Shown one piece after another: positions 17,841 through 54,490 of a stretch of 64,000 bases of DNA. This DNA is from Candidatus Woesearchaeota archaeon. Lineage in GTDB: Archaea; Nanobdellota; Nanobdellia; Woesearchaeales; UBA10216. The notes under the pieces are model-generated. The model ran no database searches, was not told the DNA's origin, and saw nothing but the letters and a program-made list of their open reading frames with translations. Position numbers and translations under genes: made by a program. The DNA lies in the NCBI GenBank assembly GCA_016180195.1, contig JACPBS010000004.1, forward strand, positions 17,485 to 81,484. The letters are read 5' to 3'. Within the stretch, counting starts at the first letter, position 1. Every line of letters begins with the position of its first letter.

Positions 17841-18057
17841 ATGTTGTGTCAAGTACCCCGGGCTAAAGCCCAGGGCGTGTTCTTGAGCACACAAATCAAG
17901 CTTTGCTTGATTGTGCCCATTTGAGCTATGCTCAAATTGGGTCTCAGAAATTGTCAAGCTTTGCTTGATTGTGCCCATTTGAGCTATGCTCAAATTGGGT
18001 CTCAGAAATTGCTCGTCCTTACTGCGCACTAAAGTGCCACAGATTACGTCGAGAGCA
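17841..18057 (+). repeat. Hairpin-rich intergenic repeat, family A copy 1 (contains a perfect 58-bp tandem duplication, 17896-17953 / 17954-18011)
   Basis: About 150 bp near-identical to 40241..40405. Built from consecutive palindromes: GGGCTaaAGCCC, AATCAAGCtttGCTTGATT, CCCATTTGAGCtatGCTCAAATTGGG, GCACTaaAGTGC. Confidence 0.85.
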
Positions 18058-18113: not shown

Positions 18114-19481
18114 GTGAAACATTTATCTTTTTGCATGGCAAGTTTTGGTATCGATACAATCATCAGGCGTTATTATCCATTTGCTCTTGGCGCTCTTGTT
18201 TTTATCATGTCCAATTGCTCCCCTTATAAGCAATTAACTCCTGTTTCTTCAGCTGTGGAAAACTACACCGTACCGCCTGCTAATACAGTTCCAAGCGAGA
18301 CCCCAACTCCTTTTTACTCTCTTTTTGCACCTTTTCTTTTTGATGGACCCCCTTCACCTACATCTACTCCGGAGAAAAAGCTCGTTTTTTCCCCCCAGTT
18401 TTATAACGGAAGCAGGCACGTCACGCCCACGGTTACACCTTCAATTACACCAAAACCTGTTCCGCCAACACCAACACAAGCTCCAAGCCTTTGTTATGAC
18501 ATGAATGGAAAAAGCCCTTCTGAGAAATCTGAATACCTTGTTAAGCTGTCCTCTCCTGTCGAATTCAACCAGAAGAGGGTTGGGATGAACCACAACTTTC
18601 GTGCCCCGACAGGGGGTTTCAACCCATTACATCAGGGCGCTCCAAATTCGGGGTGGGCAAGGTTTGTTTTCATCGTCAATGAGGGTAACCTGGATGAGGC
18701 TTTTGGTTTTTATGACCTGTATTTTTATGATTTGGCAATATTCAGGATAAAGCCGCTGGTTGTATTCAATACCCAGTCGCATATAAGCAACTATTGGTCT
18801 CACCTTAATTCCAAAGCTGAGTGGGATGAGTATGTTGCCGGCTACACAGATCAGCTTGGAAAACTTCTTGACAGGTATGGGTATGCAATAGCAGGAATTG
18901 AGCTGGGGAATGAGAATGATTTCCATAGTTCATACATCCCGCCTGAGAGGTATGCTGCCCTGCTCAAGAGCGCATCTGCAAAGATTGATGATTTTAACTC
19001 AAGAAAATCTTCGCGTATTTTGAAGATTTCAGGAGGCCTGGTAACCGGCTCGAGTGCTTTGGAATATCTTATGCATGTGAGGGATGCAATTGGCGGAGAT
19101 TTGCCTGTTGACGTAATTGCATACCATCTTTATGGGTACAGGATTGATGGTTACAATTTTAAATATCCTGAATGGGGATGGAATGGTTCGCCTGAAAGCG
19201 TGAATTCGATCCTGGATTCCTTTAGGAATGCGGGGTTTAGAGAGCCTTTCATGATAACTGAGGCTGGCATCCAGGAAAAGAATCCGGCAAGGCAAAAGGA
19301 CAGGGCAGATTGGTATGATGCCCTGGCAAGATACCTGTTCGAGTATAGAAATGATGTGGACTCTCTGATTTTTTTCGCAGGCTCGGACATTAATGAGGAC
19401 GGGTTTGGCTTTGTAGACACAGCATGCAATGTGTACAGGGAAATGTGGGATGGTTATCTTGGACTTTTAGAAAGGTATTGA
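18114..19481 (+). CDS. Secreted/lipid-anchored glycoside hydrolase, clan GH-A (GH5-like) TIM barrel with Pro/Thr-rich linker
   Basis: 455 aa. N-terminal hydrophobic segment with Cys (FIMSNCSP), PT-rich linker, acid/base-like motif GIELGNEND and nucleophile-like motif MITEAG. Confidence 0.5.
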   Translation: MKHLSFCMASFGIDTIIRRYYPFALGALVFIMSNCSPYKQLTPVSSAVENYTVPPANTVPSETPTPFYSLFAPFLFDGPPSPTSTPEKKLVFSPQFYNGSRHVTPTVTPSITPKPVPPTPTQAPSLCYDMNGKSPSEKSEYLVKLSSPVEFNQKRVGMNHNFRAPTGGFNPLHQGAPNSGWARFVFIVNEGNLDEAFGFYDLYFYDLAIFRIKPLVVFNTQSHISNYWSHLNSKAEWDEYVAGYTDQLGKLLDRYGYAIAGIELGNENDFHSSYIPPERYAALLKSASAKIDDFNSRKSSRILKISGGLVTGSSALEYLMHVRDAIGGDLPVDVIAYHLYGYRIDGYNFKYPEWGWNGSPESVNSILDSFRNAGFREPFMITEAGIQEKNPARQKDRADWYDALARYLFEYRNDVDSLIFFAGSDINEDGFGFVDTACNVYREMWDGYLGLLERY

Positions 19482-36084: not shown

Positions 36085-36316
36085 TGTTATATCTGGAAAA
36101 ATCGTATTTGTTCTTGGCCTGGCCAATATTCTCGGCATTTTTTTGGTATTTTTTTCGTGCAGGTGCCTGGTCGGGGCGGGGATGTTCAGCAGGCTTATGG
36201 AGAATAGGTGGTACAGGGGCTTTTATTCAAAGCATTGCCTTTTTTGGTGGATTTTCCTTCTGAGCGTTGCCGCTCACGCCATTTTGTCTTTTTATGTTTT
36301 CGGGTTTCCTTTTTAG
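36065..36316 (+). CDS. Candidate small membrane protein (2 TM)
   Basis: 83 aa, hydrophobic. Overlaps pyrF end and purA leader. Weak. Confidence 0.25.
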   Translation: MKPVAFNVISGKIVFVLGLANILGIFLVFFSCRCLVGAGMFSRLMENRWYRGFYSKHCLFWWIFLLSVAAHAILSFYVFGFPF

Positions 36317-36353
36317 GGAAAGAAATATAAAAGGCCCCCTGATTTTCAGGTTG

Positions 36354-37670
36354 ATGAACAGGGTCGTGATAGGCGCATATTGGGGGGATGAGGGAAAGGG
36401 CAAGATTGTTGACCTGCTTGCTTCTGATTCTGATTGGGTTGTGAGGTTTAACGGCGGTGATAACGCAGGCCATACAATTTTGGTCAATGGAAGAAAGGTT
36501 GTTCTTCACATACTGCCTTCAGGTGTGCTTCAGGGCAAGAATGCTGCGATAGGCCCTGACGTGTTCTTTAACCCGAAATCTTTTTTTGCGGATATCAAAG
36601 AGGTTGAGAGCAAAGGCTTCAGGCTGGCTGGCAGGGTTGTTGTGGATGATCGGGCTCATGTGATAATGCCTTACCATATTGCTCTTGACATGAGCCATGA
36701 GAATTCAGGAAGAAGGATCGGAACTACCGGGAAGGGTATAGGTCCTGTTGCTAAGGACAAGGCCTCTAGGAGGGAGGACATTACAATCCATGATCTTTTA
36801 TTTGACATAGGAAAAATCCGGGAGGTTGTCGCTGCCAAGGAGAATGAGCTTGTAAGGAATGGCATTATCTGCCAGGGTGAAGCAGACGATTATGCTGAGA
36901 GCCTTGTCAGGGAGTATTCCTCTTATGCTTCCCTGTTGAAGCCGTTTGTTGGTAATGTCATGTACATTCTTAATAACGCATTGGCAACAGGCCAATCCAT
37001 CCTTGTTGAGGCTGCCCAGGGCACTCTTCTTGACATAGTGCATGGCACAAGGCCTTTTGTGACGAGCTCTAACACAACATCAGGCGGTGCGTTTGCGAAT
37101 CTTGGCCTTAATCCGAAGCTGTTCAGGATAATTGGCATCGTAAAGGCTTATCCCACAAGGGTTGGTGAGGGCCTTTTTCCTACAGAGATGGATGATGAGT
37201 TTGGAAAGCAGGTTCAGATGGACGGGTTTGAGTTTGGGGCGACAACAGGCAGGGTGAGGCGCATTGGGATGCCTGATTTTGTGGCTCTTAGTTATTCTGC
37301 TGCTGTCAATGGCGTTGACGAATGGGTTGTTACTAAGCTTGATGTTCTTGCAGGAAAGGAGTTCACCGCCGCAGTTTCTTATGAGAAGGATGGGCAGGTC
37401 TCATCAGAATTCCCTTCGAGGCTTGATGGGTGGAAGCCTGTTTATAACGGGAGGACATATTACTTTGATAAGTTCTCAGAGGACCAGGCAATGGCCATGG
37501 TCGAGATGGGTTTTGATGCGCTTCCTGACGGCATCAAGGATTTCCTCAAGGACCTCGTAATGCATACAAGGGTTCCTGTAAGCATGGTGAGCCTTGGGCC
37601 TGAGAGGGGTGTTACAGTCATTAAGAATGTTCTTGAACGCACAAAAGGCTGGCTTGATGGACCTCGTTAA
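36354..37670 (+). CDS. purA: Adenylosuccinate synthetase
   Basis: Internal ATG 36354 gives MNRVVIGAYWGDEGKGKIVD (P-loop GDEGKGK). GTP-binding TTGKGIGP and substrate loop GATTGRVRR. Confidence 0.85.
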   Translation: MNRVVIGAYWGDEGKGKIVDLLASDSDWVVRFNGGDNAGHTILVNGRKVVLHILPSGVLQGKNAAIGPDVFFNPKSFFADIKEVESKGFRLAGRVVVDDRAHVIMPYHIALDMSHENSGRRIGTTGKGIGPVAKDKASRREDITIHDLLFDIGKIREVVAAKENELVRNGIICQGEADDYAESLVREYSSYASLLKPFVGNVMYILNNALATGQSILVEAAQGTLLDIVHGTRPFVTSSNTTSGGAFANLGLNPKLFRIIGIVKAYPTRVGEGLFPTEMDDEFGKQVQMDGFEFGATTGRVRRIGMPDFVALSYSAAVNGVDEWVVTKLDVLAGKEFTAAVSYEKDGQVSSEFPSRLDGWKPVYNGRTYYFDKFSEDQAMAMVEMGFDALPDGIKDFLKDLVMHTRVPVSMVSLGPERGVTVIKNVLERTKGWLDGPR

Positions 37671-38268
37671 GATTGAAAATGTGATTATCAGCGTTTACGA
37701 TAAGCGCGGGGTATCTGAGCTAGCTAAGGAGCTTGTGAGGATTAATCCTTCGATAACCATAATAAGCAGCGGCGGGACTTTCAGGGAACTGCAAAAATCT
37801 GTTGCTTCAAACCTTGTTGATGTTTCCGAATACACTGGTTTCCCTGAGATGCCGGGAGGCCTCGTAAAGACCCTTCATCCTAAGGTTCATGGCGGCATCC
37901 TTGGCAATGAGGAGCAGGTGCAATACATGTCAATGCATGGCATTAAGAAGATTGACCTGGTTGTTGTTAACCTTTATCCTTTCAGGGCAGCTTCTGAAAA
38001 AGGAAGCTTTGAGGAGGCAAGGACAAACATAGACATTGGCGGAGTAAGCCTTATCGAGGCTGCATGCAAGAACTTCCTTAGGGTTGCTGTCATTTCTGAT
38101 CATTGCGATTATGATGAGTTTTTGGATGAGCTAAAGCAGCTTAACGGCTGCTCGGGGCTGTCAACAAGGTTAAAACTTGCAAAGAAGGCAATTTCCCGCC
38201 TATCTGATTACCTTTCCAATATCAGCATTTATTTTCAGAAACTGAACATTGAAGAAGTAAAAAAATGA
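37657..38268 (+). CDS. purH: PurH N-terminal half: IMP cyclohydrolase (MGS-like) domain as separate ORF
   Basis: Internal ATG 37657 gives MDLVKIENVIISVYDKRGVSELAKELV...ISSGGT...LVKTLHPKVHGGIL, the IMPCH domain. Stop overlaps the next ORF start (ATGA). Confidence 0.7.
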   Translation: MDLVKIENVIISVYDKRGVSELAKELVRINPSITIISSGGTFRELQKSVASNLVDVSEYTGFPEMPGGLVKTLHPKVHGGILGNEEQVQYMSMHGIKKIDLVVVNLYPFRAASEKGSFEEARTNIDIGGVSLIEAACKNFLRVAVISDHCDYDEFLDELKQLNGCSGLSTRLKLAKKAISRLSDYLSNISIYFQKLNIEEVKK

Positions 38269-39500
38269 ACAAGGACTACAAGAAATCATACAAGACGATA
38301 GTTACAGACCATTTCCCGGAGACATTGAAGGTTTCTCTTGGAGGGAGGGAAATAACTTACAGGAAGAAATTGTGGAATTTAGGTAATGAAACTGTCGGGC
38401 TGAGGTATGGTGAGAATCCTGGCCAGGAGGCTGCTTTGTATGAGGCTGAGAATGCCAGTCTTGTTCTTGGCGAGTGCACTTATGTTTATGGGGATCCCCT
38501 TGTTAGCGGGATTTCAGAATCGGATATTCTTCAGGTTGGCAAGCATCCCAGCATGAACAACCTTACTGATGTTGATGCTGCCCTGAATATTTTGAGGTAT
38601 TTTGACAGGCCGACCGCGGTCATAATAAAGCACAACAACCCGAGCGGCGTTGCTTCGAGGGAGAGCATTGCTGATGCCTACACTGAAGCGAATCTTTGCG
38701 ATTCAATTGCTGCTTTCGGCGGGGTTGCTGTTTTCAACAGGGATGTTGACCGCGAAACCGCTTTAAGGATAGAGAAGAATTATCTGGAGGTTGTTTGCGC
38801 TCCTGGTTTTGACGAGGATGCACTTGAACTACTAAAGCAGAAAAAAAACCTGAGAATCATAAGGATAGGTAACATTGCAAACCTGAAGAAATTCTCAAGG
38901 TTTATTGATTTCAGGCCTTTGATGGATGGTGGATTGATACTTCAGCAATCGCTTCTTAATACAGTAAAAAGCACGAGTGATTTGGCGGTTGCCACTTCAA
39001 CCTTTGAAGGCAAGGAACACGCAATAAAAAGAAAGCCTGATGAAGCAGAGTATCGAGATCTGATTTTCGCTTGGAGGGTGCAGCAGGGGGTCACCAGCAA
39101 TTCTGTTATCTTTGTGAAGGATGAGTCAACCGTCGCAATAGGCACTGGAGAGCAGGACCGTGTTGGTGTTGCCAAGATTGCTGCTTTCAAGGCTTATGAG
39201 AAGTATGCTGCACGCCTGTCATTAGAAAAGTATGCAACCCCTTATTGGCTGCTTGATTCTGCTGAAAAGAAAAGTCTTATCGACAAGGAGGTTGAAAATG
39301 CTAAGGGCAACATATCAGGATCTGTCATGTCATCAGATGGCTTTTTCCCGTTTGCAGATACAGTTGAGGTTGCCGCAAGATACGGTGTCACAGCTATTGT
39401 TCAGCCCGGCGGATCCCTGAGGGATCATGAGAGCATTGAGGCCTGCAACAACCACAATATCAGTATGGTATTCACTGGCCAGAGGGCTTTCAAGCATTAG
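38265..39500 (+). CDS. purH: PurH C-terminal half: AICAR formyltransferase domain as separate ORF
   Basis: 411 aa. AICARFT blocks (GLRYGENPGQ, IKHNNPSG, SDGFFPF). Confidence 0.8.
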   Translation: MNKDYKKSYKTIVTDHFPETLKVSLGGREITYRKKLWNLGNETVGLRYGENPGQEAALYEAENASLVLGECTYVYGDPLVSGISESDILQVGKHPSMNNLTDVDAALNILRYFDRPTAVIIKHNNPSGVASRESIADAYTEANLCDSIAAFGGVAVFNRDVDRETALRIEKNYLEVVCAPGFDEDALELLKQKKNLRIIRIGNIANLKKFSRFIDFRPLMDGGLILQQSLLNTVKSTSDLAVATSTFEGKEHAIKRKPDEAEYRDLIFAWRVQQGVTSNSVIFVKDESTVAIGTGEQDRVGVAKIAAFKAYEKYAARLSLEKYATPYWLLDSAEKKSLIDKEVENAKGNISGSVMSSDGFFPFADTVEVAARYGVTAIVQPGGSLRDHESIEACNNHNISMVFTGQRAFKH

Positions 39501-39530
39501 CTACAATGAATTTCGCGGTTCAAATCCTCG

Positions 39531-39572
39531 ACCTTTAGGGCAAGGATAGCTCCGAGCGGCGGATTTTGTTAC
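39531..39572 (-). repeat. Family B repeat fragment (inverted), abutting HepT stop codon
   Basis: Reverse complement gtaacaaaatccgccgctcggagctatcct matches 23873-23903. Followed by a CCTAAAGG hairpin. Also contains the T-loop-like string GGTTCAAATCC (39517-39527). Confidence 0.65.
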
Positions 39573-39844
39573 TTTCTCCTTTCCAAATTCGACAATACCT
39601 TTTTTAGTTTCTGCTTCAGGTTTGGAATTTCTTTTTTAATCGCTGCCCAAACAAGATCATAGTCAGTTCCAAAATACGCGTGGATTAACCTGTCTCTCAT
39701 TCCGGACATGGATTTCCATTGGATTTCTTTGTATTGGTTTTTTATTTCTTCAGGCATGTATTTGGCAGCTTCTCCGATTATCTCGAATTTCCTTATAACT
39801 GCACTTGAAGTTTTCTCATCATTCTTCAGCTCCTCAAGGGTCAT
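39569..39844 (-). CDS. HepT-like toxin (DUF86, HEPN superfamily)
   Basis: 91 aa. HEPN R-x4-H-x-Y motif in MRDRLIHAYF. Confidence 0.7.
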   Translation of the reverse strand: MTLEELKNDEKTSSAVIRKFEIIGEAAKYMPEEIKNQYKEIQWKSMSGMRDRLIHAYFGTDYDLVWAAIKKEIPNLKQKLKKVLSNLERRK

Positions 39845-39915
39845 TTCTCCAATAAAGCTTTGAATCGAATCAATTGCTTACAAGATGTCCTTTACGAAAA
39901 GTTTAGAATCCCTTT

Positions 39916-40228
39916 TCATATCATGATAACCCCTTTGGTGATGCTATCTTTTAATTCAGGCCTTATTCCTCTTTCCGAAACGACATCCACCTTCATTTTT
40001 AGTTTTTCTTCAAGATAATTGCCTAAACCATTAAAATCAAAGAGGGTTGCATCGGTGTTAAACTTAACGAGAATATCTAAATCGCTGTTTTTTTTGTTGG
40101 CCTCTTGCAAAAGATCCGAAGATGCCAAGTTCCTTAACTTTATATCTTTTCTTTAGTTTAGGCATGTTTGATTCCAACGTATTTCGAATTTGTTGTAGAT
40201 TCTTCATTTTCACTGTTTTATCGTACAT
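39916..40228 (-). pseudogene. MNT-type minimal nucleotidyltransferase (antitoxin partner of HepT) disrupted by a frameshift in an A8 homopolymer
   Basis: One frame encodes MYDKTVKMKNLQQIRNTLESNMPKLKKRYKVKELGIFGSFARGQQKK. The adjacent frame continues NSDLDILVKFNTDATLFDFNGLGNYLEEKLKMKVDVVSERG.... The GS-x-ARG and DLD motifs are split across a T8 run at 40088-40095 (A8 on the coding strand). Seven A would give an intact 103-aa MNT. Confidence 0.7.
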
Positions 40229-40240
40229 TACTTGTTATAA

Positions 40241-40405
40241 AAATCTTGCTATGTGTCAAGAACCCGGGCTAAAGCCCAGGGCGTGTTCTTGAGCACACAA
40301 ATCAAGCTTTGCTTGATTGTGCCCATTTGAGCTATGCTCAGATTGGGTCTCAGAAATTGCTCGTCCTTACTGCGCACTAAAGTGCCACAGATTGCGTCGA
40401 GAGCA
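40241..40405 (+). repeat. Hairpin-rich intergenic repeat, family A copy 2
   Basis: Near-identical to 17841-18057 but with a single copy of the 58-bp unit. Lies in the purF upstream region. Confidence 0.85.
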
Positions 40406-40479
40406 CAAATAAACGCTTGGCGTTTATTGTGCAATAAACCGAAGCATTTTCCGCGTTGTATTAGGGGTGTTTTTGATTT

Positions 40480-41890
40480 GTGTGGTATTTTTGCGGTAAT
40501 TGGTAGCAGTCAGGCAGCCGCAGAGCTGTATATTGGCTTGACTCATCTTCAGCATAGGGGTCAGGATGCTGCAGGGATTGCTGCTTCTGACCGCTCAGGC
40601 GGTCTTAGGATTTTCAAGGGCAAGGGGCTTGCCCTGGATATTTTCAGCGAGGAAACAATACGCGATCTGGGCGGGTTTATGGGCATTGCCCATAATCGTT
40701 ACCCGACTGCTGGAGTTGGTGACTCTACCGAATACCAGCCTTTTTCTGATGGCGAGGTTTCAATTGCTTTTAATGGAAATATCATTAATTATCCGAGCTT
40801 GAAATCTGCAATTGAGCAGCAGGGCAGGAAATTCTGTTCTAGCTCTGATGGCGAGCTTCTGCTTTGTATTTTTGCGGACGCTTACAGGAAGGGCGGGTTT
40901 TTCCATGCTGTAAGGGAAGTCCAGGAGAAACTTGTTGGAGGGTATTCTGTTGTGGGTGTTGTTGAGGGGAAGGGGATTTTTGCCTTCAAGGACCCTAATG
41001 GGATAAGGCCATTGATAATGGGTAGACGGGGTGGCCCTGATGTAGGTTATGCTTTCGCTTCTGAAAGCATTGCTTTGTCAGTTGATGGTTATAATAGTTT
41101 GCGCGATTTGAGGAACGGCGAAGCTGTTTTTGTTGGAAGCGATTTGAAGATTGAATCTAAGGTTATTATTGGCAGGGATCATGCCCCTTGCATCTTTGAG
41201 TACGTATATTTTTCCTCTGTTGAGTCTGTTCTCAACGGAATGCCTGTTTATAGTGTGAGGAGAGGGCTTGGAAAGGCTTTGGCTAATAAGGTTAAGGAGC
41301 TTTGGCCTGATATGGGGATTGATGTTGTCATACCTGTTCCTGATACTAGCAGGCCTGCCGCTGTTTCGCTTGCGCAGTCTCTTGGGGTTCCTTATGAGGA
41401 GGGTTTGGTGAAGAACAGGTATATTGGCCGTACTTTTATCATGCCATCGCAGAAGATTAGGGAAAGCGCCCTGAAGGTTAAGCTTAAGCCTATCGAGTCA
41501 GTAATAAGGGGAAAGAACGTGATGGTTGTTGATGATTCCATTGTGAGGGGAACCACTTCAAGAAGGATCGTCAGGCTTCTGAGGGATTTCGGGGCGAGGA
41601 AGGTTTTCCTCCTGAGCACTTTTCCTCCAATAAGGCATCCTTGTGTTTACGGGATTGATTTTACCAATGAGAATGAGCTTATTGCTCATGGAAAAACAAT
41701 TGATGATGTTGAGAGGGAGATTGGTGCTGATAGGCTTGTGTATATGGATCCTGATGCTTTGGGAAGGATCGTTGGAATAAATGGCATCTGCATGGCTTGT
41801 CTTAACGGCATTTATCCCACTTCCATGGATCATGCAAGGGAGATGCAGGAGCAGAGGCTGAAGGATAAGGGGAGGATGGTGGAAGGATGA
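40480..41890 (+). CDS. purF: Amidophosphoribosyltransferase
   Basis: The longest ORF starts at 40334 but runs through the repeat. The TTG at 40480 gives M-CGIFAVIG with the catalytic N-terminal Cys of class II glutamine amidotransferases. PRTase motif VMVVDDSIVRGTT. C-terminal Cys ligands of a 4Fe-4S-type PurF (CMACLNGIYP). Confidence 0.85.
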
Positions 41891-43188
41891 AGGTTCTCTT
41901 GGTCGGTTCCGGGGCCAGGGAGAATGCGATTTCTGATGCCCTTATCGCCGGGCAGGCTGATGTTTTCGCCTTCATGTCCAACAGGAACCCGGGCATTTGC
42001 AGGTACTGCAGGAAATTCGAAATAGGGGATGTAAAGGATGTGCTTTCAATCTGTAAGTTTGCCTTAGCTTCAAAACCTGATTTGGCTGTTATCGGTCCCG
42101 AAGCTCCTTTGGCTGCAGGTGTTGTTGATGAGTTGCATAAGATCGGCGTTAGCTGCTTTGGCCCGACTAGGGAGCTTGCGCAGCTGGAATCCAGCAAATC
42201 ATTCACAAGGTGTCTGCTTGAGAAATACAACATCAATGCAAGCCCGGAATTCAGGATTTTTACAAGGAAAAGTCCTGAAGCTGAGATAAGGTCTTTTTTA
42301 AGGGACCTGGGTGAATATGTGATCAAGCCTGACGGGCTCACGGGTGGCAAGGGTGTTAAGGTTTTTGGCGAGCATATTGATAATGACGATGATGCAGTTG
42401 ATTACTGCAATGAGATCTTTGGCAACAATTCTTCAGTTGTAATTGAGGAGAAGCTTGATGGTGAGGAATTCAGCCTGCAGTCAATTACCGACGGAAAAAC
42501 AGTTATAGACTGTCCTCCTGTTCAGGACCATAAGAGGGCTTTTGATAATGACATCGGGGCAAATACCGGAGGCATGGGCAGTTATGGCTGCGAGGATCAT
42601 CTTCTTCCCTTCCTGAAACGCGAGCACATAGATCACGCACACAATATCACAGTTCAAGTTGCCTCGGCTTTGAAAAAGGAGATCGGCCCTTACAAGGGGG
42701 TGATGTATGGCGGGTTCATCCTCACTAAGAAGGGAGTGAGGCTTATAGAGTACAATGCGAGGTTTGGAGATCCTGAAGCGATGAATGTGATTCCTCTGAT
42801 GAAGACCAACTTCGTGGATGTCTGCAATGCGGTTATCAATTCAGAGCTGCATAAGATTGAATTCAGGAAATTGGCATCTGTTTGCAAGTATGTTGTTCCT
42901 GAAGGCTATCCGGAAAATCCAAGACCTGGAAGGATTGAAGTTCCGGCAAGCGCGCCTGCCTTAACATTCTACGCTGCCGTTGATGAGAAGGCAGATGGCA
43001 TTTATGCCACGAAGTCAAGGGCAGTTGGATTTGTCGGCATGGCGCCGGGCATTGAGGAGGCTGAACGCATCGCTGAGCAGGCTGCTTCAAGGGTAAAAGG
43101 ATTCGTTTTCCACAGAAAGGATATCGGAACAAGAGCGCTGCTGCAGAAAAGGATTGCGCATATGAAAGGCATTATGGAGGGAAAATGA
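41887..43188 (+). CDS. purD: Phosphoribosylamine-glycine ligase
   Basis: 433 aa. ATP-grasp fold with GARS N-terminal, ATP-grasp and C-terminal domains. Confidence 0.9.
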   Translation: MKVLLVGSGARENAISDALIAGQADVFAFMSNRNPGICRYCRKFEIGDVKDVLSICKFALASKPDLAVIGPEAPLAAGVVDELHKIGVSCFGPTRELAQLESSKSFTRCLLEKYNINASPEFRIFTRKSPEAEIRSFLRDLGEYVIKPDGLTGGKGVKVFGEHIDNDDDAVDYCNEIFGNNSSVVIEEKLDGEEFSLQSITDGKTVIDCPPVQDHKRAFDNDIGANTGGMGSYGCEDHLLPFLKREHIDHAHNITVQVASALKKEIGPYKGVMYGGFILTKKGVRLIEYNARFGDPEAMNVIPLMKTNFVDVCNAVINSELHKIEFRKLASVCKYVVPEGYPENPRPGRIEVPASAPALTFYAAVDEKADGIYATKSRAVGFVGMAPGIEEAERIAEQAASRVKGFVFHRKDIGTRALLQKRIAHMKGIMEGK

Positions 43189-53421: not shown

Positions 53422-53928
53422 CTAATGATTTGATTGCATCAGCTCTTCTGCCTTATTGATGAAGTCCAAAACCTTGTTTTCGTATTCTTCTATTGTTTCA
53501 TTGTTGAATTTTATCGTTGTTGCATAGCTTGCATCATGCCTGTCATCTTTAAGCTGTGTGTAGAGCTCAGCATCTTCCTTGCTTATGGAAAGCTCGTTTA
53601 GCAGCTTTGCCTCTTCTCTTGTTATCGCATACTCTTTGATGAGTAGGAGTATTGTCGCATAGTGGTTCTTTGATGTGTACTTTTTTCTTGTTATCAAAGC
53701 CAATGCAGAATGGTACAGTGAGTAGTACAATGTTACGACAAGCCAGTCATTGAACTTGTGCTGCTCTTTGTTGAGCTTATAGAACTCCATGTTATGCCTT
53801 GCTTTTTTCAGGTGTGATTGGGCTAGCTCAGGGTTGCTTCCTATTTTCCTTATGTGCTTTTTTTCCGTGAAAAAGACAATTTCCTGCTCAAGGAATTTCT
53901 TGTCGGAGAACAGCTTATTGATATCCAT
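53422..53928 (-). CDS. HEPN-domain protein (toxin-like partner of MNT)
   Basis: Likely start at the internal ATG at 53928 (MDINKLFSDKK...). The ORF track extends to 54003. HEPN-type R-x4-H motif context (KKARHNMEFY). Confidence 0.6.
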   Translation of the reverse strand: MDINKLFSDKKFLEQEIVFFTEKKHIRKIGSNPELAQSHLKKARHNMEFYKLNKEQHKFNDWLVVTLYYSLYHSALALITRKKYTSKNHYATILLLIKEYAITREEAKLLNELSISKEDAELYTQLKDDRHDASYATTIKFNNETIEEYENKVLDFINKAEELMQSNH

Positions 53929-54490
53929 CCAATTGTACCTCGTAAAAGCTTTGTTCTTTATGGATTGGAAATCCTGTCTTTCTTGCCTGAATGATGATGT
54001 CATCTTTATTATCCTTGAATTGGGATATTGTTGCGTTGAAAAGTGATAAAGGATGCTTCGAGGTTATTTCGGCCTCTTTCTTATTTATCGACAAGTCTGG
54101 CTTTTTTCCTGATACGACAAGAATGTCAATGTCGCTTTCATTTGTTTCCTCTTTTCTTGAAGCAGAGCCGAAGAGGATTATGGTGAAGATGTTTTCAGGG
54201 ATATTCTTCAGGAAGTTTTTGAGCGGTACTTTTACGTTTGGGCTCAGGCTGTTGAATTTTCGCATTGCTATCTCGGAGAATTTGAGGGCAAAGAGTTTTT
54301 TGTCCTTTATCTTATAGAAGGTGTTTGCCTTGGTCTTTTCTTCATCCAGGACGTTTGCTTTGGTGAGCTTTTCCAGGGCGTTTTGCAGGGAGCTATGGGA
54401 GAGTATTGTGTGCTCCTTGATCTGGTTGTAATAGAGCTTAGGCTGCTTTAGCTCAAAAAATGCCTCGTATATCTTCTCTTCTGCGTTCAT
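53915..54490 (-). CDS. MNT-type nucleotidyltransferase with N-terminal winged-helix domain
   Basis: 191 aa. Nucleotidyltransferase motifs ILFGSASRKEETNESDIDILVV. Confidence 0.75.
   Translation of the reverse strand: MNAEEKIYEAFFELKQPKLYYNQIKEHTILSHSSLQNALEKLTKANVLDEEKTKANTFYKIKDKKLFALKFSEIAMRKFNSLSPNVKVPLKNFLKNIPENIFTIILFGSASRKEETNESDIDILVVSGKKPDLSINKKEAEITSKHPLSLFNATISQFKDNKDDIIIQARKTGFPIHKEQSFYEVQLDGYQ

What the first reader, a model, noticed from the sequence alone, without database searches (positions are those of the whole stretch)
39916..40228. HepT/MNT module whose MNT gene is frameshifted in an A8 homopolymer
The MNT nucleotidyltransferase motifs are split between two frames. One frame reads ...ELGIFGSFARGQQKK and the next reads NSDLDILVKF.... 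They are split exactly at a run of eight A (T8 on the plus strand, 40088-40095). Seven A would restore a 103-aa MNT with GS-x-ARG and DxD in order. The HepT partner (39569..39844) is intact. An antitoxin inactivated at a slippery homopolymer is notable because HepT would be unopposed if expressed. The candidate explanations are a sequencing error, a decaying module, or slippage-dependent (phase-variable) expression.
Basis: seen in the sequence. Interest (0 to 1): 0.5.

Follow-up and report, generated by a model that had tools for sequence, protein, structure and literature searches.

The report
Decaying HepT/MntA toxin-antitoxin pair

Summary
The frameshift is real. T8 lies at 40088-40095 (A8 on the coding strand) and separates the GS motif from the DxD motif of an MNT/MntA gene. 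Per-run Logan assemblies of five SRA runs match the window at 100%. Four of them span the tract, so a consensus error is very unlikely.

1. HepT is not intact. Its true ATG (39919-39917) overlaps the MNT stop as ATGA, and codon 14 is TAA (39880-39878). Homologs have GAA or GAT there. The 91-aa ORF is a remnant that starts at internal Met27 and lacks helix alpha1.

2. A7 restores the frame but gives GS-X9-DXD. All 114 homologs that matched the motif, and the published family definition, have GS-X10-DXD. Only A10 gives that spacing and the usual 97 aa. The net lesion is therefore -2 nt.

The other residues are well conserved, so both lesions look recent. No intact allele was found in the protein database. 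No close homolog has a long A run or a frameshift at this site.

Best reading: a recently pseudogenised class I (type VII) HepT/MntA module in a variable purH-purF gap. Phase variation and programmed slippage are not supported. Interest is low.

The parts
39916..40228 (-). mntA (MNT nucleotidyltransferase antitoxin) pseudogene. The family-type start is ATG 40207-40205; an upstream in-frame ATG lies at 40228-40226. The stop TGA is at 39918-39916.
   Evidence: Pfam PF01909 and PF18765 hit the joined protein. It is 74-76% identical to 97-aa homologs.
40088..40095 (-). A8 homopolymer (T8 on the + strand), the site of the frameshift. A7 gives GS-X9-DXD and 96 aa. A10 gives GS-X10-DXD and 97 aa.
   Evidence: The DNA alignment places a 2-nt gap here relative to four intact homologs.
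40112..40117 (-). GS codons of the GS-X10-DXD motif, in the upstream frame.
   Evidence: Translation. Motif definition from PMC7641770.
40075..40083 (-). D-L-D codons (the DXD part of the motif), in the downstream frame.
40064..40066 (-). TAA that ends the frameshifted 5' MNT fragment (54 aa from ATG 40228, 47 aa from ATG 40207).
39569..39919 (-). hepT (HEPN RNase toxin) pseudogene of 116 codons. Its ATG 39919-39917 overlaps the MNT stop as ATGA.
   Evidence: With codon 14 filled, Pfam PF01934 covers profile positions 1-120 of 120 at 6e-30. It is 72-78% identical to 117-aa homologs.
39878..39880 (-). Premature in-frame TAA at codon 14 of hepT. It aligns with GAA or GAT in homologs.
   Evidence: TAA is an ordinary stop here, ending 14 of 58 long ORFs.
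39842..39844 (-). Internal Met27 codon.
   Evidence: Met27 is the family consensus residue inside the protein.
39674..39697 (-). RX4HXY motif (R75-D-R-L-I-H80-A-Y82), still intact.
   Evidence: Invariant columns in alignment A1. Motif and the equivalent Y82 of Thermococcus cleftensis HepT in PMC7641770.
40235..40243 (-). TTTTTATAA, a possible archaeal TATA box about 30 nt upstream of ATG 40207. This is inference only.
   Evidence: Read from the sequence. Not tested.

Best explanation

In a working module, MntA (a minimal nucleotidyltransferase with a GS-X10-DXD motif) AMPylates the tyrosine of the RX4HXY motif of the HepT RNase and so neutralises it. This mechanism is established for the family, not shown here.

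Here the toxin gene has a G-to-T change that turns a GAA-type codon 14 into TAA, in the middle of helix alpha1. The antitoxin gene has lost a net 2 nt in an A-rich QQKK(T/S/N) stretch. That leaves A8 and puts GS and DXD in different frames.

Loss of an antitoxin is tolerated only when the toxin is harmless. The likely order is therefore toxin knock-out first (or at the same time), then drift of the now useless antitoxin by replication slippage in the homopolymer. This order is inferred.

The locus does nothing today. There is no unopposed toxin.
For: Shown:
- The A8 tract splits the MNT motifs.
- hepT has an in-frame TAA at codon 14, and the 13 codons before it still carry the family's invariant K2, R3, L7, F8 and D11.
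- TAA aligns with GAA/GAT in homolog DNA.
- TAA ends 14 of 58 long ORFs in the window, so it is not recoded.
- All 114 of 114 motif-matched homologs have 5 residues between GSxxRG and SDxD, that is GS-X10-DXD. This is the published defining motif (PMC7641770). It also holds in the solved structures 1WOT and 5YEP.
- A7 gives X9 and A10 gives X10. The A10 version scores higher: Pfam 55.3 vs 48.8 bits, NCBIfam MntA 44 vs 37 bits.
- Both lesions are reproduced at 100% identity in per-run assemblies of five SRA runs.
- The best database relatives of the repaired proteins are only 74-78% identical, so no intact allele is on record.
- An AF2 model of a 78%-identical homolog (pLDDT 91) places alpha1 at residues 5-23. 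Its best fold matches are S. oneidensis HepT chains, TM about 0.66.
- In L. pneumophila HEPN, alpha1 is part of the dimer interface (PMC11586414).
- The purH-purF gap holds different cargo in each related genome.
Against: - The order of the two mutations is inferred, not observed.
- The RX4HXY motif and most conserved residues are intact. HepT deviates at only 1 of 54 strongly conserved columns. Residual activity of a Met27-initiated 91-aa product therefore cannot be excluded by sequence alone.
- All assemblies come from what looks like a single strain (100% identity over up to 6.7 kb). They show reproducibility, not independent evolution.
- Consensus assemblies cannot reveal minority tract lengths.
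- The ancestral DNA at the tract (A10, or A9 plus a second deletion, or A7 plus one insertion) cannot be decided.
Confidence: 0.85

Rival explanations
1. The extra base is a sequencing or assembly error at the homopolymer, and the real genome carries an intact MNT.
For: Homopolymers are classic error sites. I could not inspect reads or learn the sequencing platform.
Against: - Four separately assembled runs from two accession series carry A8, with 0 mismatches and 0 gaps.
- Nine other A/T runs of 8-9 nt lie in frame inside long ORFs of the same window.
- A one-base error cannot restore the family's GS-X10-DXD spacing. Two bases are missing.
- The neighbouring hepT carries an independent nonsense substitution, which is not a homopolymer artefact.
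Confidence: 0.03
2. The tract is a contingency (phase-variable) switch. Replication slippage turns MntA on and off in the population.
For: A8 is long enough to be hypermutable (general knowledge; Baranov et al. 2005, PMC1088944).
Against: - No length variant appears in any assembly.
- The four nearest homologs have interrupted A-rich codons here (CAAAAAAGA, CAAAGAAAG, CAGAAAAAG), with no long run and no frameshift.
- The nearest in-frame state, A7, gives a non-canonical X9 spacing.
- The partner toxin is already truncated, so switching the antitoxin has no evident purpose.
Confidence: 0.04
3. Expression is rescued by programmed recoding, either transcriptional slippage on A8 or +1/-2 ribosomal frameshifting, which yields some full-length MntA.
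For: Slippage can be productive on eight A's in some IS elements (PMC1088944). The shift needed is +1 or -2 within an A run.
Against: - Programmed cases are recognised by conservation of the run and of the two-ORF layout among homologs. Here 114 of 114 motif-matched homologs are single ORFs with X10 spacing, and none of the four examined at DNA level has the run.
- The tract is below the usual 9-nt threshold.
- No slow codon or stop follows the run; the next codon is CAG.
- Rfam finds nothing in the region.
Confidence: 0.05

Closest known systems
[quoted passage not shown] 2020, PMC7641770)
   Same: - Gene order is MNT then HepT, with an ATGA overlap.
- Pfam families are PF01909 and PF01934.
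- The RX4HXY motif is present, with Tyr82 at the same number as in the T. cleftensis toxin.
- The predicted HepT fold matches S. oneidensis HepT chains (TM about 0.66).
- Both proteins are small.
   Different: - Both genes are broken here: a frameshift between GS and DXD, and a nonsense codon 14 in hepT.
- Sequence similarity to the characterised pairs is low (about 14% identity in the fold match).
- NCBIfam equivalog scores are 44 and 38 bits against a cut-off of 60.
- No activity can be assumed.
Uncharacterised 97-aa MNT / 117-aa DUF86 pairs of Woesearchaeota and Nanoarchaeota MAGs (for example P0125/P0015 on GCA_053533115.1, locus L030)
   Same: They are 72-78% identical in both proteins, with the same operon layout, overlap and lengths once the window's genes are repaired.
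   Different: Those copies are intact single ORFs with GS-X10-DXD. They sit in unrelated genomic contexts, for example next to a Fic gene or a deaminase gene.
'Pseudo-pseudogenes' rescued by polymerase slippage at poly(A) tracts (Baranov et al. 2005, PMC1088944)
   Same: A frame-disrupting indel lies inside an A run in a coding sequence.
   Different: The run is only 8 nt, it is not conserved in homologs, and the gene has no evident remaining role because its partner is also disrupted.

Membership tests
Class I HepT/MntA (type VII TA) | The antitoxin carries a contiguous GS-X10-DXD motif. | tested here: not met
   GS (40112-40117) and DLD (40075-40083) are in different frames. A7 repair gives X9 and only A10 gives X10. 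All 114 of 114 motif-matched homologs have X10. Definition from PMC7641770.
Class I HepT/MntA (type VII TA) | The toxin carries an RX4HXY motif. | tested here: met
   R75-DRLI-H80-A-Y82 lies at 39674-39697(-). These columns are invariant in alignment A1.
Class I HepT/MntA (type VII TA) | Neighbouring PF01909 and PF01934 genes, with MNT upstream. | tested here: met
   Pfam scores: HepT 103.8 bits repaired, 91.3 bits for the remnant; MNT 48.6-55.3 bits repaired. ATGA overlap at 39916-39919.
Class I HepT/MntA (type VII TA) | Both reading frames are complete. | tested here: not met
   Frameshift at 40088-40095 and TAA at 39878-39880.
Class I HepT/MntA (type VII TA) | NCBIfam equivalog score at or above the cut-off (NF047752 MntA, NF047751 HepT; 60 bits). 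| tested here: not met
   44 bits (A10 repair) or 37 bits (A7 repair) for MntA, and 37.8 bits for HepT. These are the best hits but fall below the cut-off.
Class I HepT/MntA (type VII TA) | HepT RNase toxicity, and neutralisation by MntA-dependent AMPylation. | not testable with these tools
   This needs expression and biochemistry.
Programmed transcriptional slippage or ribosomal frameshift gene | The slippery run and the two-frame layout are conserved among homologs. | tested here: not met
   Homolog DNA has interrupted A-rich codons and single ORFs. Criterion from PMC1088944.
Phase-variable contingency locus | Tract-length polymorphism between or within populations. | tested here: inconclusive
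   Four assemblies all show A8. They are consensus sequences of what looks like one strain, and reads were not available.

The most novel reading that the evidence does not exclude
The module is attenuated rather than dead. Occasional RNA-polymerase or ribosome slippage on A8 would make trace amounts of MntA (with X9 or X10 spacing). Re-initiation at Met27 would make an alpha1-less HepT that keeps its RX4HXY site. Together they would give a low-dose, stochastically expressed toxin-antitoxin pair in a DPANN archaeon.
Probability: 0.03. Interest if true: 0.45.

Novelty: new member of a known kind. Interest (0 to 1): 0.1.

Why it matters
It matters little beyond correct annotation. Both ORF remnants (the 91-aa 'HepT-like' ORF and the 70-aa 'NTP_transf_2' ORF) are called as genes in public assemblies, and they should be flagged as pseudogenes.

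The case is a small, clean example of how a toxin-antitoxin module can decay without killing its host. The toxin carries its own disabling mutation, so a broken antitoxin next to an apparently whole toxin ORF should prompt a check of the toxin's true start.

It also shows that restoring the frame is not the same as restoring the gene. Motif spacing (GS-X10-DXD) identifies the ancestral tract length.

Tried and rejected
- Exact-pattern scans for the tract region, allowing A7 to A10, found nothing in genome contigs or metagenome contigs. No population variants could be recovered that way.
- A second metagenome scan for the neighbouring hairpin repeat also found nothing.
- Rfam gave no match at gathering threshold over the whole window, and only chance-level hits at E up to 5 over 39500-40520. 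No tRNA genes were found.
- A profile search of PDB sequences with the HepT alignment gave no hit at 1e-3. The link to solved HepT structures came only from the fold comparison.
- Stop-codon reassignment for the TAA was considered and rejected. TAA ends 14 of 58 long ORFs.
- The split purH (37594-38268 plus 38265-39500) was considered as a second frameshift, which would have suggested an error-prone assembly. This was rejected because the same two-gene layout occurs in six related MAGs.
- dN/dS was not attempted. At about 75% amino-acid identity to the nearest relatives, synonymous sites are likely saturated.

Full report
**Observation.** The + strand has eight T at exactly 40088-40095, which is A8 on the coding minus strand. 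Upstream of the run, one frame reads MYDKTVKMKNLQQIRNTLESNMPKLKKRYKVKELGIFGSFARGQQKKQRFRYSR* (54 aa, 40064..40228). Downstream, another frame reads ...NSDLDILVKFNTDATLFDFNGLGNYLEEKLKMKVDVVSERGIRPELKDSITKGVIMI* (39916..40128). The joined protein hits Pfam NTP_transf_2 (PF01909) and Polbeta (PF18765) well above the gathering score. The core observation, an MNT nucleotidyltransferase split at a homopolymer, is correct.

Reading the minus strand upstream of the 91-aa 'HepT' ORF in the same frame gives MKRDSKLFVKDIL*AIDSIQSFIGEMTLEEL....
- The ATG at 39919-39917 overlaps the MNT stop codon (ATGA, 39916-39919). This is the layout of every intact homologous pair examined.
- With codon 14 filled in, the 116-aa protein covers the whole Pfam HepT-like profile (positions 1-120 of 120, 6e-30). 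The 91-aa ORF covers only positions 15-120.
- In a 26-sequence alignment, the 13 codons before the stop keep the family's invariant K2, R3, L7, F8 and D11. The residues after it keep A15, I19 and F22.
- Homologs are 112-124 aa, mode 117. The single 91-aa entry among the best 120 is this locus itself, seen only in Logan assemblies.
- At DNA level the TAA (39880-39878) aligns with GAA, GAA and GAT in three intact relatives. One G-to-T change explains it.
- TAA is a normal terminator in this genome, ending 14 of 58 long ORFs.

**What the truncation removes.** An AlphaFold2 model of a 78%-identical homolog (pLDDT 91.4) places helix alpha1 at residues 5-23. The stop falls inside alpha1, and a restart at Met27 would delete the whole helix. 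The best fold matches are the S. oneidensis HepT chains of 7BXO, 5YEP and 6M6W (TM about 0.66, probability 1.0). In the L. pneumophila HEPN toxin, alpha1 is part of the dimer interface and contacts the Tyr loop (PMC11586414). That the remnant is inactive is an inference from these facts, not a measurement.

**The frameshift is a net loss of two bases, not a gain of one.**
- Class I HepT/MntA pairs are defined by GS-X10-DXD in the antitoxin and RX4HXY in the toxin (Yao et al. 2020, PMC7641770).
- Of the 120 listed homologs, 114 matched the motif pattern. All 114 have exactly five residues between GSxxRG and SDxD, which is X10. The same spacing is seen in the solved MNT structures 1WOT and 5YEP.
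- Rebuilding the gene with different tract lengths gives these results: A7 gives 96 aa with GS-X9-DXD. A10 gives 97 aa (the modal family length) with GS-X10-DXD. A6, A8, A9 and A11 are out of frame.
- MAFFT places a 2-nt gap in the window against four intact relatives. Those read CAGCAAAAAAGATCAAGC, CAGCAAAGAAAGTCAAGC and CAGCAGAAAAAGACAAGT at this site.
- The A10 repair scores higher than the A7 repair: Pfam 55.3 vs 48.8 bits, NCBIfam MntA 44 vs 37 bits.
- Whether the path was A10 to A8, or two separate 1-nt losses, or a codon loss followed by an insertion cannot be decided.

**Is it an artefact?** Exact-protein look-ups recovered the locus in per-run Logan assemblies of SRR12113385, SRR12113390, SRR12113419, SRR12113422 and SRR4343428. 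Every contig is 100% identical to the window over its full length, up to 6,676 nt, with no gaps. Four contigs span the A8 tract and all five span the TAA. Nine of the 12 A/T runs of 8 or more in the window lie in frame within long ORFs, so the assembly has no general homopolymer problem. A consensus error is therefore very unlikely. There are two caveats: the five runs evidently sample one strain, and I could not see reads.

**Organism and context.**
- The flanking AICARFT (purH C-terminal) protein finds its best relatives (61-70% identity) in Candidatus Woesearchaeota MAGs. The TA homologs carry Woesearchaeota, Nanoarchaeota and Aenigmarchaeota names.
- In L011, L012 and L015, purH is followed by purF. 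L014 has purF further downstream. The purH-purF gap holds unrelated cargo: small ORFs without Pfam hits in L011 and L012, and other small ORFs (not scanned) in L015.
- In L010 no purF was found, but directly downstream of purH there is a different wHTH-MNT gene with a 132-aa partner.
- None of these loci has this HepT/MNT.
- The module therefore lies in a variable, insertion-prone spot, which fits a mobile selfish element that arrived and is now decaying.

**How recent are the lesions?** HepT departs from strongly conserved columns at only 1 of 54 positions (I85T). MNT departs at 5 of 58, against 0-2 for most homologs. That is a mild hint of relaxed constraint on the antitoxin. Overall both lesions look recent.

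**Mechanism.**
- Established for the family: MntA AMPylates the Tyr of RX4HXY and thereby silences the HepT RNase.
- Shown here: both genes are interrupted. The RX4HXY site (39674-39697) is intact but sits in a product lacking alpha1. GS and DXD cannot be in one polypeptide without a +1 or -2 shift.
- Inferred: the toxin was disabled first or at the same time, because losing the antitoxin of a live toxin is counter-selected. The A-rich QQKK stretch then suffered replication slippage. Ribosomes now stop at TAA 40066-40064, about 145 nt before the hepT start, so translational coupling is lost as well.

**Rivals.**
- Phase variation: no variant was seen, homologs have no long tract, and the partner toxin is dead.
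- Programmed slippage: the criterion of conservation among homologs (Baranov et al. 2005, PMC1088944) is not met, the run is 8 nt rather than 9 or more, and no stimulatory context is evident.
- Neither rival can be strictly excluded without reads or RNA, so together with the error hypothesis they keep about 12% of the probability.

**Comparison and novelty.** This is a pseudogenised member of the very abundant class I/type VII HepT/MntA family. Its closest relatives are uncharacterised DPANN pairs at about 75% identity. It scores below NCBIfam's equivalog cut-offs and fails the intact-ORF and contiguous-motif tests. It should be filed as a HepT/MntA-derived pseudogene pair, not as a functional system. 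Nothing about it is mechanistically new.

**Verdict.** Interest is low (0.1).

Noticed in passing
window 40252-40405 and window 17849-18057: A hairpin-rich intergenic element of about 150 nt lies between the MNT start and purF. The stretch has 5-6 stem-loops, with an MFE of -82 kcal/mol over 252 nt. A 98-99% identical second copy lies upstream of the gene at 18114, and that copy contains an internal partial tandem duplication. There is no Rfam match, no copy in the related loci, and no exact match in the metagenome collection. Three of the five Logan contigs of this locus end inside it (about 40289-40292). It may be a MITE-like repeat or an unknown small RNA.
   Followed up: partly
window 53422-54490 (-): A second, apparently intact pair of the other (class II-like) kind is present. 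It consists of a 191-aa wHTH plus nucleotidyltransferase protein (PF18765/PF01909) followed by a 193-aa HEPN-domain protein (PF05168, a weak hit just under the gathering score). The two ORFs as listed overlap by 89 nt, which is probably a start-codon artefact.
   Followed up: partly
window 37594-39500 (+): purH is encoded as two genes: an MGS/IMP-cyclohydrolase part of about 203-224 aa and an AICARFT part of 411 aa, with an ATGA overlap at 38265-38268. The same split occurs in six related Woesearchaeota MAGs, so it is a natural arrangement and not a frameshift.
   Followed up: yes
L010 5251-6185 (-); L011 7263-7790; L012 7280-7693; L015 7240-8115: The space just downstream of purH differs in each related Woesearchaeota genome. 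L010 carries a different wHTH-MNT (179 aa) plus a 132-aa partner in the same position and orientation as the window's module. This suggests an insertion hot spot for such modules.
   Followed up: partly
L032 1501-2163 and L033 1501-2029: A 72%-identical MNT homolog (P0131, 106 aa) has no detectable HepT in the 208-342 nt that remain downstream on its contigs. It sits directly after another MNT/HEPN pair. It may be an orphan antitoxin, that is, another decay state of the same family.
   Followed up: no
window 36267-43188: This DPANN-type archaeon appears to carry a run of purine-biosynthesis genes. Precomputed Pfam annotations on the Logan contigs support adenylosuccinate synthase and purH. The purF assignment rests on 60-70% identity to the downstream gene in related MAGs. 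The ORF at 41887-43188 looks like purD by eye only. From general knowledge such pathways are often missing in DPANN genomes. The assignments beyond purH were not checked with profile searches.
   Followed up: no
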